In this document: positions 2,923 through 28,488 of the stretch, one piece after another
Layout: every line of letters starts with the position of its first letter
Numbering within the stretch: the first letter of the stretch is position 1
Assembly (NCBI GenBank): GCA_003144275.1
Contig: NJBF01000001.1
Location: 90,001 to 122,000, forward strand
Direction of reading: 5' to 3'
Origin: Candidatus Heimdallarchaeota archaeon B3_Heim
Lineage (GTDB): Archaea; Asgardarchaeota; Heimdallarchaeia; Hodarchaeales; Hodarchaeaceae
DNA length: 32,000 nucleotides
Program-made: the position numbers and the translations under genes
Notes under the pieces: model-generated
What the model was told of the DNA's origin: nothing
Database searches by the model: none
Seen by the model: the letters and a program-made list of their open reading frames with translations, nothing else

Positions 2923-3027
2923 GCTGCTGTGGCTTAGTTGGTAGAGCGACAGACTCGTAAGATTCATAGAAGATCATGATAACTCCGAGATATCTGTTGG
3001 CCGTGGGTTCAAGTCCCACCAGCAGCT
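2923..3027 (+). tRNA. tRNA-Thr(CGU) with a 32-nt intron (2960-2991) at canonical position 37/38; CCA not encoded
   Basis: Acceptor GCTGCTG/CAGCAGC, D arm GCTT/GAGC, anticodon stem ACAGA/TCTGT, anticodon CGT 2956-2958, T arm GTGGG-TTCAAGT-CCCAC. Intron forms a strict BHB: CTCG pairs with CGAG, with bulges TAA and ATA. Confidence 0.96.
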
Positions 3028-27866: not shown

Positions 27867-28062
27867 TGAAGTACCCCGAGAAAACTGTAATCCTAAAATC
27901 TTCTCTTCTTATTCAACAAATTACAAAATACAGAGGAATTAATTAATTTTAGGATTAAAGGTTTGGAAGTTCTCTACGAATTCTTTGACAAGTGATGTGT
28001 TAGATAATCTGGAATATCAGAAGGTTAATGCTGAAACCTTAAAACGCGTTAATAAATTCGTG

Positions 28063-28089
28063 AGAAGAAAGCAAAAATAGATAGAAAGG
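28063..28089 (-). terminator. Pyrimidine/U-rich terminator-like tract ending the 5S transcription unit
   Basis: Minus strand reads CCTTTCTATCTATTTTTGCTTTCTTCT immediately after the outer processing stem. Confidence 0.5.
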
Positions 28090-28090
28090 T

Positions 28091-28308
28091 GTTTGTATCT
28101 CAAGGCGCTTTTTCACCAGGGGATATTGTTTCCGGGTTCGGAATGAGACCGGGTGTGACTCAGGCCCTTTGGCCGAAGAACCTTCAGCTTTCCGATTTTC
28201 CCGTAGGCGCGAGCACAACAGTACAGATCGGAACGGAGCCTGACTTAACTTTCGGCAATATCTCACAGGTTAATTCATCGCAAGATGTCTGTTTGAGAGA
28301 TTACAAAC
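28091..28308 (-). repeat. Two nested inverted-repeat pairs flanking the permuted 5S (precursor processing stems)
   Basis: Inner pair 28256-28262 with 28122-28128 (GATATTG/CAATATC, 7 bp). Outer pair 28293-28308 with 28091-28103 (GTTTGTA-ATC-TCTCAA / TTGAGA-TACAAAC, 13 bp with a 3-nt bulge). Confidence 0.8.
28130..28249 (-). rRNA. rrf: 5S rRNA, circularly permuted gene (3' half 28249-28182, GUU linker 28181-28179, 5' half 28178-28130)
   Basis: Reordered sequence CTTCGGCCAAAGGGCCTGAGTCACACCCGGTCTCATTCCGAACCCGGAA|GTTAAGTCAGGCTCCGTTCCGATCTGTACTGTTGTGCTCGCGCCTACGGGAAAATCGGAAAGCTGAAG (117 nt). It has all archaeal 5S motifs (CACACCCG, CATTCCGAAC, GGAAGTTAAG, GTACTG, CGGGAA) and helices I-V pair. Confidence 0.93.
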
Positions 28309-28331
28309 CAGTTGGGGCTATTTCAAGAGGC

Positions 28332-28339
28332 TTTAAATA
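28332..28339 (-). promoter_or_regulatory. Candidate TATA box of the 5S unit
   Basis: Minus strand CTAAA-TATTTAAA; centre about 26 nt from G28309, which is where the outer stem starts. Confidence 0.55.
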
Positions 28340-28488
28340 TTTAGTGGTAACTCTTTTCATTAGCTTTTATTGGTAGGATACAAAAAGATCATCGGTAAAT
28401 GTGCTTGAAGTACGGGTAAAAATCTCTAATTTAAATATTTAATAGGTATACTGGATCTTAGCATCTGAAAATCGATGGATATAAGCAA

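What the first reader, a model, noticed from the sequence alone, without database searches (positions are those of the whole stretch)
28130..28249. Circularly permuted 5S rRNA gene
Seen: on the minus strand the canonical 3' half of 5S (GTTAAG...GCTGAAG) comes first, then GTT, then the canonical 5' half (CTTCGGC...CCCGGAA). The normal 5' and 3' ends are therefore fused into a hairpin (GCTGAAG-GTT-CTTCGGC, helix I capped by a 3-nt loop). The gene boundaries fall exactly at the conserved AA bulge of helix III (E. coli A52-A53). Reordered, helices I (7 bp), II (GGGCCTGA/TCAGGCTC), III, IV and V (TTCCGAT/ATCGGAA) and loops C and E are all intact. Known: permuted genes are described for tRNAs (Cyanidioschyzon, Thermofilum) and some organellar 5S RNAs; I know of no chromosomal archaeal permuted 5S gene. 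Inference: standard 5S models would score it weakly or as two fragments, which could explain apparently missing 5S genes in related genomes.
Basis: partly seen in the sequence, partly recalled or inferred. Interest (0 to 1): 0.96.

Follow-up and report, generated by a model that had tools for sequence, protein, structure and literature searches.

The report
Permuted 5S rRNA gene, circular RNA
This Asgard archaeon (Hodarchaeales group) encodes its only 5S ribosomal RNA with the two halves in swapped order between tRNA-intron-type cut signals. Environmental RNA data contain the predicted 120-nt closed ring, which explains why 5S genes seemed to be missing from these close relatives of eukaryotes.

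Summary
Window 28249..28130 (minus strand) reads 3' half of 5S, a GUU cap, then the 5' half.

- **Detection:** Rfam RF00001 gives only two sub-threshold fragments here and nothing else in the genome. The re-ordered sequence gives one full-length hit to a profile of canonical Asgard 5S.
- **Conservation:** the permuted order recurs in every Heimdallarchaeia family sampled and in about 20 Asgard families overall. These include closed genomes (Heimdallarchaeum, Odinarchaeum, Atabeyarchaeia). All helices co-vary strongly.
- **Processing signal:** the flanks form a strict bulge-helix-bulge motif. Its symmetric cuts always rebuild the canonical helix III junction.
- **Enzymes:** the genome encodes two EndA paralogues and RtcB.
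- **RNA evidence:** contigs from four metatranscriptomes cover only the 120 nt. They span both the cap and the ligated junction, and most are 150 nt long (120 + k-1), as expected for a closed ring.

Best reading: the RNA is excised and ligated into a circle (about 0.9). The ring itself is probably the ribosomal 5S (about 0.6, inferred).

No publication describing this was found. Wu et al. 2022 reported that 5S could not be predicted in Heimdallarchaeum genomes. This scan has noted the same feature before on other DNA (71 notes, at least 61 genomes).

The parts
28130..28249 (-). Permuted 5S rRNA, excised unit of 120 nt (3' half, cap, 5' half)
   Evidence: The permuted covariance model R1 scores it 133.6 bits. 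RNA contigs cover exactly this stretch.
28182..28249 (-). Canonical 3' part of 5S: 3' strands of helices III and II, the helix V / loop E / helix IV arm, and the 3' strand of helix I
   Evidence: HMM positions 45-115.
28179..28181 (-). GUU cap joining the native 3' and 5' ends, closing helix I as a hairpin
   Evidence: In relatives the cap is often a UNCG tetraloop (about 24 of 48 loci).
28130..28178 (-). Canonical 5' part of 5S: 5' strands of helices I and II, helix III and loop C
   Evidence: RF00001 positions 27-51, 20.8 bits; HMM positions 4-50.
28249..28262 (-). 5' strand of the BHB: outer helix GAUAUUG (28262-28256), central helix CCGA (28255-28252), bulge AA|G (28251-28249)
   Evidence: The outer helix co-varies in 40 distinct loci.
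28122..28135 (-). 3' strand of the BHB: central helix CCGG (28135-28132), bulge AA|A (28131-28129), outer helix CAAUAUC (28128-28122)
28293..28308 (-). 5' strand of an outer processing stem in the leader; it pairs with 28103-28091
   Evidence: MFE fold of 28315-28085.
28091..28103 (-). 3' strand of the outer processing stem in the trailer
28331..28342 (-). TATA-like box AAAUAUUUAAAG about 85 nt upstream of the 5' cut. It is conserved in position across the genus.
   Evidence: by eye; no archaeal promoter tool was available.
28073..28079 (-). T-rich tract about 50 nt after the 3' cut, a likely archaeal terminator. Genus members carry similar tracts.
   Evidence: by eye.

Best explanation
This is the organism's functional and only 5S rRNA gene, circularly permuted with the break after the AA bulge of helix III. 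It is transcribed on the minus strand as a small independent unit: a TATA-like box, a leader of about 60 nt, the 120-nt unit, a trailer and a T-tract. Leader and trailer pair to form a bulge-helix-bulge motif: a 7-bp outer helix, a 4-position central helix, and two 3-nt bulges. The tRNA-splicing endonuclease (two EndA paralogues are encoded) cuts in both bulges. RtcB then joins the 2',3'-cyclic phosphate end at ...CCCGGAA to the 5'-OH end at GUUAAG... . This restores helix III and gives a 120-nt covalently closed RNA with a complete 5S fold whose helix I is capped by GUU. Shown here: the permuted gene, its conservation and covariation, the BHB geometry, the presence of the enzyme genes, and RNA contigs that hold both the ligated junction and the cap. 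Inferred: which enzymes act, and that the ring itself, not a re-opened linear form, sits in the ribosome (about 60%).
For: **Gene and fold:**

**Only copy:** no other RF00001 or R1 hit in the genome.

**Conservation:** the locus is permuted in 19 of 21 genomes of the genus and in all seven Heimdallarchaeia families seen (f1-f7). It is permuted in about 20 Asgard families overall, at 60-134 bits with R1. Canonical 5S genes of other phyla score 37 bits or less with R1.

**BHB:** in 42 loci (40 distinct flank pairs) the first 7 bp of the outer helix are 95% paired. With partners swapped between loci the figure is 49% (sd 2.8, maximum 60%). Central-helix positions are 80-100% paired with several pair types. 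The cut register differs by 1 nt between lineages (AA|G + AA|A versus AA|A + GA|A), yet the product is always helix III strand, AA, GU(U/C)AAG.

**Enzymes:** EndA twice (99.3 and 64.8 bits) and RtcB (559.8 bits).

**RNA:** contigs of four metatranscriptome runs (2020 wetland and 2025 sediment libraries) cover 28130-28249 only. The apparent extension of cover to 28255 is the ligated junction aligning to the similar 5' flank. Loose ends before 28130 equal the reverse complement of GUUAAGUCAGG..., which is the junction. In three runs the contig is 150 nt (120 + 30), the length of an isolated cycle at k=31. In the fourth run (X1) the ring is split into 50-nt and 130-nt contigs that together give 120 nt, and X1 also holds a 151-nt ring of a relative. 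One contig maps around the circle more than once. No contig enters the genomic flanks.

**Cap:** UNCG tetraloops in about half of the loci, and a 30-nt extension in one.

**Tolerance of a cap:** E. coli ribosomes work with 5S whose native ends are joined by a tetraloop (PMC7283268).

**Precedent:** the permuted SRP RNA of Thermoproteus is circularised at a BHB by the same machinery (PMC4731332).
Against: - Only assembled contigs of RNA runs were available, not raw reads. The ratio of ring to linear forms, the RNA ends and the strand are therefore not measured.
- I could not check whether the joined form also occurs in DNA runs.
- The MFE fold of the precursor shows the native 5S fold plus the outer stem, not the BHB conformer. 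The precursor's z-score is only -1.76. The BHB needs the 3' CCGG to pair with the leader instead of with its own helix III partner.
- In this window the central helix has three standard pairs plus an A-C.
- The inner helix h' is only 2-3 bp.
- Cleavage by EndA, ligation by RtcB and presence of the ring in ribosomes are untested.
- My choice of BHB register maximised pairing, which inflates the pairing figures somewhat.
Confidence: 0.8

Rival explanations
1. The ring is only an intermediate. After BHB cutting and ligation the helix I cap is cut open, giving an ordinary linear 5S with its ends at helix I. This is the route of permuted tRNA genes and of circular pre-16S/23S rRNA.
For: Analogy with permuted tRNAs (Soma 2007, cited in PMC4267664). 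Analogy with circular pre-rRNA that is re-linearised (PMC12918454). Contigs cannot show RNA ends or relative amounts.
Against: The cap is only 3-5 nt. In about half of the loci it is a UNCG tetraloop, a compact and stable hairpin end rather than a spacer carrying processing signals. There is nothing comparable to the leader and trailer that RNase P and tRNase Z recognise. The de Bruijn cycle is unbranched, and in run X1 the contig spanning the cap has depth 6.5 against 8.4 for the one spanning the junction (a weak measure). A capped helix I is compatible with function in E. coli.
Confidence: 0.17
2. The RNA stays a permuted linear molecule with its ends at the AA bulge of helix III and is never ligated, like the brown-algal mitochondrial 5S that is permuted in the final product.
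For: Such product-level permutation exists (PMC4267664).
Against: RNA contigs from four runs contain the junction ...CCCGGAA-GUUAAG..., which is not in the genome. The conserved BHB would have no purpose. Helix III would be held by only 2 bp at the nick.
Confidence: 0.02
3. The locus is an artefact or a dead copy: a misassembly, a pseudogene, or a non-ribosomal 5S-derived RNA, with the real 5S unassembled or unrecognisable.
For: The genome is a 103-contig assembly, 94% complete. rRNA genes are often missing from such assemblies.
Against: More than 60 independent assemblies share the same architecture, including closed chromosomes that lack any canonical 5S. 24 base pairs show compensatory changes. 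Loops C and E are invariant. The RNA is expressed.
Confidence: 0.01

Closest known systems
Permuted, circular SRP RNA of Thermoproteus tenax / T. uzoniensis (Plagens et al. 2015, eLife; PMC4731332)
   Same: A universal structured RNA whose gene has the 3' part before the 5' part and which standard models miss. Its termini lie in a BHB cut by the tRNA-splicing endonuclease, and ligation gives a functional circular RNA.
   Different: A different RNA (SRP RNA, not a ribosomal RNA). It is confined to a few Thermoproteus species, whereas this 5S form spans about 20 Asgard families. For SRP RNA, cleavage, circularity and protein binding were shown experimentally. Here only sequence, covariation and RNA contigs are available.
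Circularly permuted tRNA genes (Cyanidioschyzon merolae, Soma et al. 2007; Thermofilum pendens)
   Same: The 3' half precedes the 5' half, there is a BHB-type motif at the new ends, and the transcript is circularised.
   Different: In tRNAs the circle is an intermediate. It is opened by RNase P and tRNase Z at a linker that carries leader and trailer. Here the linker is a 3-5-nt, often UNCG, cap with no such signals. The statements about Thermofilum rest on my own knowledge.
Permuted mitochondrial 5S rRNA of brown algae and other stramenopiles (Valach et al. 2014; PMC4267664)
   Same: A 5S rRNA with non-canonical connectivity, missed by standard models, in which helix I is closed as a hairpin.
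   Different: It is organellar. The ends move only to the three-way junction. The product stays permuted and linear, with no BHB and no ligation.
BHB-dependent circular pre-16S/23S rRNA, and circular 23S rRNA in mature archaeal ribosomes (Genome Biol 2026, PMC12918454); permuted 23S of Pyrococcus furiosus (Birkedal et al. 2020, PMC7758197)
   Same: The same EndA/RtcB chemistry is applied to ribosomal RNA, and circular rRNA may persist in ribosomes.
   Different: Those genes are co-linear and the BHB sits in the processing stem at the normal ends. PMC12918454 states that circularisation concerns 16S and 23S 'but not 5S' rRNA. Low-level 5S circles reported in Sulfolobus and Pyrococcus come from co-linear genes without a BHB.
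Engineered cp5S rRNA in E. coli (Huang et al. 2020; PMC7283268)
   Same: The native 5S ends are joined by a tetraloop, new ends are opened in loop C or D, and the ribosomes are functional.
   Different: It is artificial and fused into 23S rRNA. It is not a free ring and is not natural.

Membership tests
5S rRNA (Rfam RF00001) | Three-way junction with helices I-V and loops A-E, supported by covariation | tested here: met
   RNAalifold on 24 permuted homologues. 98.4% of cells paired and 24 of 34 pairs compensatory. The MFE fold of the re-ordered sequence is the classic 5S fold.
5S rRNA (Rfam RF00001) | Conserved loop C, loop E and loop B motifs (CCGAAC, GUAC...GGGAA, GUUAAG) | tested here: met
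   Invariant columns in alignment A1. 57-68% identity of the re-ordered sequence to canonical Asgard 5S.
5S rRNA (Rfam RF00001) | Genomic sequence reaches the family's gathering score (38 bits) | tested here: not met
   20.8 and 16.9 bits, because the halves are swapped. RF00001 could not be run on the re-ordered sequence with the tools. The surrogate profile HMM gave 69.5 bits full-length.
5S rRNA (Rfam RF00001) | Co-linear gene with free 5' and 3' ends at helix I | tested here: not met
   Helix I is capped by GUU and the gene ends lie at the AA bulge of helix III.
5S rRNA (Rfam RF00001) | Component of the large ribosomal subunit | not testable with these tools
   Only indirect: it is the sole 5S-like locus in this genome and in closed genomes of relatives.
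Archaeal BHB substrates of the tRNA-splicing endonuclease | Two 3-nt bulges on opposite strands separated by a 4-bp helix | tested here: met
   Window: CCGA/CCGG (three standard pairs plus A-C), bulges AAG and AAA. 31 of 42 loci that abut the outer helix have 4/4 central pairs; 11, this window among them, have 3/4. Per position, 80-100% of 40 distinct flank pairs are paired.
Archaeal BHB substrates of the tRNA-splicing endonuclease | Flanking helices h and h' | tested here: inconclusive
   The outer helix h is present (7 bp here, 3-14 bp elsewhere, co-varying). The inner helix h' is only GUU/AAC (2-3 bp). In family f3 a hairpin separates h from the central helix.
Archaeal BHB substrates of the tRNA-splicing endonuclease | Cut by EndA, ends joined by RtcB | not testable with these tools
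   The genes are present: PF01974 twice and PF01139 once. The ligated junction is seen in RNA contigs.
Permuted RNA genes with a circular product (Thermoproteus SRP RNA type) | 3' part encoded upstream of 5' part, termini in a BHB | tested here: met
Permuted RNA genes with a circular product (Thermoproteus SRP RNA type) | Circular RNA detected | tested here: met
   RNA contigs of four runs span both the cap and the junction. Three are 150 nt (120 + k-1), and one wraps round the circle. This is contig-level only, with no RNase R or Northern data.
Product-level permuted 5S (brown-algal mitochondria) | Final RNA remains linear and permuted with an open three-way junction | tested here: not met
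   The break is in helix III, not at the junction, and the ends are ligated in RNA.

The most novel reading that the evidence does not exclude
The 5S rRNA that sits in the ribosomes of most Asgard archaea is a covalently closed circle made by the tRNA-splicing machinery. These lineages include Hodarchaeales and other Heimdallarchaeia, reported as the closest archaeal relatives of eukaryotes. The permutation always has the same break point after the AA bulge of helix III. It is therefore a rare genomic change that arose early in Asgard evolution and could help to order Asgard lineages relative to eukaryotes, whose 5S genes are co-linear.
Probability: 0.5. Interest if true: 0.95.

Novelty: new variant of a known kind. 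Interest (0 to 1): 0.9.

Why it matters
5S rRNA is universal. [quoted passage not shown]

- **Annotation:** an entire major archaeal group encodes it back to front. Standard annotation (Rfam, RNAmmer) therefore reports no 5S gene, and genome-quality standards that require 5S are failed for a biological reason. A permuted covariance model such as R1 would fix this.
- **Ribosome biology:** the ribosomes of these organisms probably carry a ring-shaped 5S. Their ribosome biogenesis would then depend on the tRNA-splicing endonuclease and RtcB for all large-subunit RNAs.
- **Evolution:** the distribution is permuted in about 20 Asgard families and co-linear in about six. This gives a discrete character for Asgard phylogeny and for the question of where the eukaryotic lineage branches.
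- **Testability:** the prediction can be tested directly in the few cultured Asgard archaea and in existing metatranscriptomes.

Tried and rejected
2. **MFE fold of the precursor.** It shows the native 5S fold plus an outer stem, not the BHB, and its z-score of -1.76 is not significant. The BHB is an alternative conformer supported by covariation, not by MFE.
3. **Pattern scan of genome contigs.** About half the rows were canonical bacterial or haloarchaeal 5S genes with a chance GGGAA upstream, and R1 separated these cleanly (37 bits or less). It therefore cannot show absence outside Asgard archaea.
A family-wide search turned up no closed genome I could recognise. My guess that f14 is Lokiarchaeia is untested.
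5. **Submitter labels.** Some are unreliable: records labelled 'Bathyarchaeia', 'Thorarchaeota' and 'Hermodarchaeota' carry Heimdall-type permuted 5S genes.
6. **Tandem arrays in G139.** There are simply two or more copies that break the assembly.
7. **RF00001 hits over the cut-off inside the class.** G005:C310 and G023:C798 are bacterial-type 5S genes on contigs of about 3.1 and 2.3 kb, so contamination. G139:C90 (38.4 bits) is a permuted copy plus flank.
8. **BHB around co-linear Asgard 5S genes.** None is evident. The TATA box lies about 25-30 nt upstream and a T-tract follows directly (by eye).

Full report
**What is there.** On the minus strand, window 28249-28130 reads GUUAAG...GCUGAAG (68 nt), then GUU, then CUUCGGC...CCCGGAA (49 nt). 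This is the 3' part of a 5S rRNA, a 3-nt cap, and the 5' part. Rfam finds only two sub-threshold pieces at the locus. These are RF00001 positions 27-51 at 20.8 bits and a strained full-length alignment at 16.9 bits, against a gathering score of 38. A search of the whole 3.95-Mb, 94%-complete assembly with RF00001 at E up to 10 returns only these two pieces. The same search finds 5S in all 14 control genomes.

I could not give Rfam a re-ordered sequence, so I built a profile HMM from 13 co-linear 5S genes of other Asgard families. The re-ordered sequence gives one hit over HMM positions 5-114 (69.5 bits, E 4e-23). The native order gives two hits in swapped order (29.0 and 27.9 bits). The re-ordered RNA folds into the textbook 5S three-way junction.

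**Conservation and covariation.** The same arrangement is present in 19 of 21 genomes of the genus, including one-contig genomes, and in other families of the class. An alignment of 24 cores from four families (A1) was folded without any prior. RNAalifold returned the permuted 5S structure: a helix III base formed by the two termini, helix II, the helix V / loop E / helix IV arm, a capped helix I, and upper helix III. On that structure 98.4% of cells are standard pairs and 24 of 34 pairs change on both sides. None of 500 shuffles reached the observed values, and sliding the partners by 1-3 columns drops pairing to 30-48%.

**Who carries it.** A covariance model of the permuted form (R1) scores 133.6 bits on the window. 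R1 scores 87-134 bits on the named Asgard records tested and 37 bits or less on co-linear 5S genes of haloarchaea, Hadesarchaea, Aeropyrum and bacteria.
- The window's genus is the 'Candidatus Hodarchaeota' group of MAGs (YT2_004, YT1_021, WORE3 and others).
- Family f3 contains Ca. Heimdallarchaeum aukensis and endolithica (closed genomes, two permuted copies each) and AB_125.
- Family f8 is Odinarchaeia, including a closed 1.42-Mb genome.
- Family f18 is Atabeyarchaeia-1 and -2 (closed).
- Family f10 is Ca. Asgardarchaeum abyssi.

In a sample of 151 genomes of the phylum, the permuted form is found in about 20 families and a co-linear RF00001 hit in about six (f11 26/26, f17 17/19, f20, f15, f27, f28). 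I checked by eye that representatives of 15 further families are truly permuted. The large AT-rich family f14 is also permuted but scores lower. Two RF00001 hits over the cut-off inside the class are bacterial-type genes on contigs of about 3.1 and 2.3 kb, so contamination.

**The flanks are a bulge-helix-bulge motif.** In the window the leader reads GAUAUUG-CCGA-AA|G and the 3' end reads CCGG-AA|A-CAAUAUC.
- The outer helix is 7 bp.
- The central helix has 4 positions (three standard pairs plus A-C).
- Each strand has a 3-nt bulge on the 3' side of its central segment.

This is the geometry of archaeal tRNA-intron and pre-rRNA BHB motifs; that comparison rests on my own knowledge. A script that scanned a few registers found the same geometry in 42 of 48 loci from at least 20 families. 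The outer helix has a different sequence almost everywhere, yet its first 7 bp are 95% paired. With partners swapped between loci the figure is 49% (sd 2.8, maximum 60% in 2000 shuffles). Central-helix positions are 80-100% paired, with pairs such as CCGG/CCGG, CUGG/CCAG, CGUG/CACG, CAGG/CCUG and CCGC/GCGG.

The strongest point concerns the cut register. It differs by one nucleotide between lineages (AA|G + AA|A, AA|A + GA|A, AA|A + AA|A). Symmetric cutting nevertheless always yields the helix III 3' strand, then AA, then GU(U/C)AAG, including the extra A that family f3 needs for its UCAG/CUGA helix. Because the bulges share A runs, the product does not depend on which symmetric position is cut. 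The genome encodes two EndA paralogues and RtcB.

**RNA evidence.** Eighteen RNA runs hold part of the 401-nt stretch. Logan contigs of four metatranscriptome runs were laid on 28000-28400.
- They cover 28130-28249 only. The apparent extension to 28255 is the ligated junction aligning to the similar CCGAAA of the leader.
- Their loose ends before 28130 are the reverse complement of GUUAAGUCAGG..., which is the junction CCCGGAA-GUUAAG. That junction does not exist in the genome.
- Three contigs are exactly 150 nt, that is 120 + 30. This is what an isolated cycle gives if the graph uses k=31; the value of k is my assumption from my own knowledge of how the Logan contigs were assembled.
- One contig maps to 28130-28249 and then again to 28130-28156.
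- In run X1 the ring is split into 50-nt and 130-nt contigs that together give 120 nt.
- X1 also holds a 151-nt contig of a relative whose junction, ...GGAU-AGUUAAG, is the one predicted from f5-type BHB motifs.
- No contig runs into the flanks.

Contigs cannot give amounts or ends. They do show that RNA molecules span the cap and that RNA molecules span the ligated junction, with no link to the precursor.

**Mature form.** About half of the caps are UNCG tetraloops (12 are UUCG in simple hairpins, plus further UNCG caps in the loci the script mis-folded). One lineage has a 30-nt extension of the capped helix. Such caps look like permanent hairpin ends rather than processing sites. Engineered E. 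coli 5S with its native ends joined by a tetraloop is functional (PMC7283268). I therefore favour the ring as the ribosomal 5S (about 0.6) over re-opening at the cap (about 0.17). This step is an inference.

**Transcription unit.** A TATA-like box (28342-28331) is conserved in position across the genus about 85 nt upstream. T-tracts follow about 35-50 nt downstream (28079-28073 in the window). Leader and trailer also form an outer stem (28308-28293 with 28103-28091). Co-linear Asgard 5S genes instead have the TATA box about 25-30 nt upstream, an immediate T-tract and no evident BHB (by eye).

**Literature.** Eight full-text searches found no archaeal permuted or BHB-circularised 5S.
- A 2026 paper states that 16S and 23S 'but not 5S' rRNAs are circularised (PMC12918454).
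- Low-level 5S circles from co-linear genes without a BHB are mentioned for Sulfolobus and Pyrococcus.
- Wu et al. 2022 could not predict 5S genes in the closed Heimdallarchaeum genomes.
- The closest precedent is the permuted circular SRP RNA of Thermoproteus (PMC4731332).

The library lacks most subscription journals, so prior publication cannot be excluded. This scan has itself noted the feature before: 71 notes in at least 61 genomes, two of them for this same stretch. Those notes agree with what I tested here.

**Verdict.** This is a natural, phylum-wide variant of 5S rRNA that uses a known mechanism. Interest is high.

Noticed in passing
L021:1516-1665 (G001, same genus); L227 (G067, family f14): Both permuted 5S genes carry a roughly 30-nt insertion at the same place in loop C, after CCGAA. 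The insertion is bounded by UCCG-AA| and CGGG-AA|, which can pair as a 4-bp central helix with two bulges, and it has an internal hairpin. Removing it restores the canonical loop C. It looks like a BHB mini-intron inside 5S rRNA.
   Followed up: partly
L228 (G113, family f14): The upstream flank holds loop C and the helix III 3' strand contiguous with GUUAAAC. The gene therefore seems to be broken in loop C rather than at the AA bulge, with a distant outer helix. R1 scores it only 36 bits. The product is unclear.
   Followed up: no
L035, L056, L057, L026 (family f3, Heimdallarchaeaceae): A hairpin of about 30 nt lies between the outer helix and the central helix in the 5' flank. It resembles a degenerate helix III / loop C (for example UCAGGAUGCGUUCCGGAUGAAC before CAGG-AAA-GUUAAG). 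It may be a relic of a tandem duplication that created the permutation, or a helper for BHB presentation.
   Followed up: no
L024:1343-1615 (G023, family f2): Two tandem permuted 5S genes lie 42 nt apart. Each has its own BHB outer helix, and the two have fully different but compensating helix II sequences.
   Followed up: partly
window 2923-3027 (+): A tRNA gene with a 34-nt intron (61.7 bits with Rfam; the anticodon looks like CGU). ARAGORN did not report it. It is another substrate for the same splicing machinery.
   Followed up: no
window 28089-28376 (+): A 95-codon ORF runs antisense across the whole 5S unit. Gene callers may annotate it as a hypothetical protein and so hide the RNA gene.
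   Followed up: no
L226 (G162, family f14): The helix I cap is extended by a hairpin of about 30 nt that itself ends in a UUCG-type loop, giving a 151-nt unit. It is an expansion segment at the position of the former 5S termini.
   Followed up: no
L200, L138, L194 (named genome contigs records): Records labelled Bathyarchaeia, Thorarchaeota and Hermodarchaeota carry Heimdall-type permuted 5S genes (114-129 bits with R1). The Hermodarchaeota record is a member of the window's own genus by handle. The submitter labels are probably wrong.
   Followed up: partly
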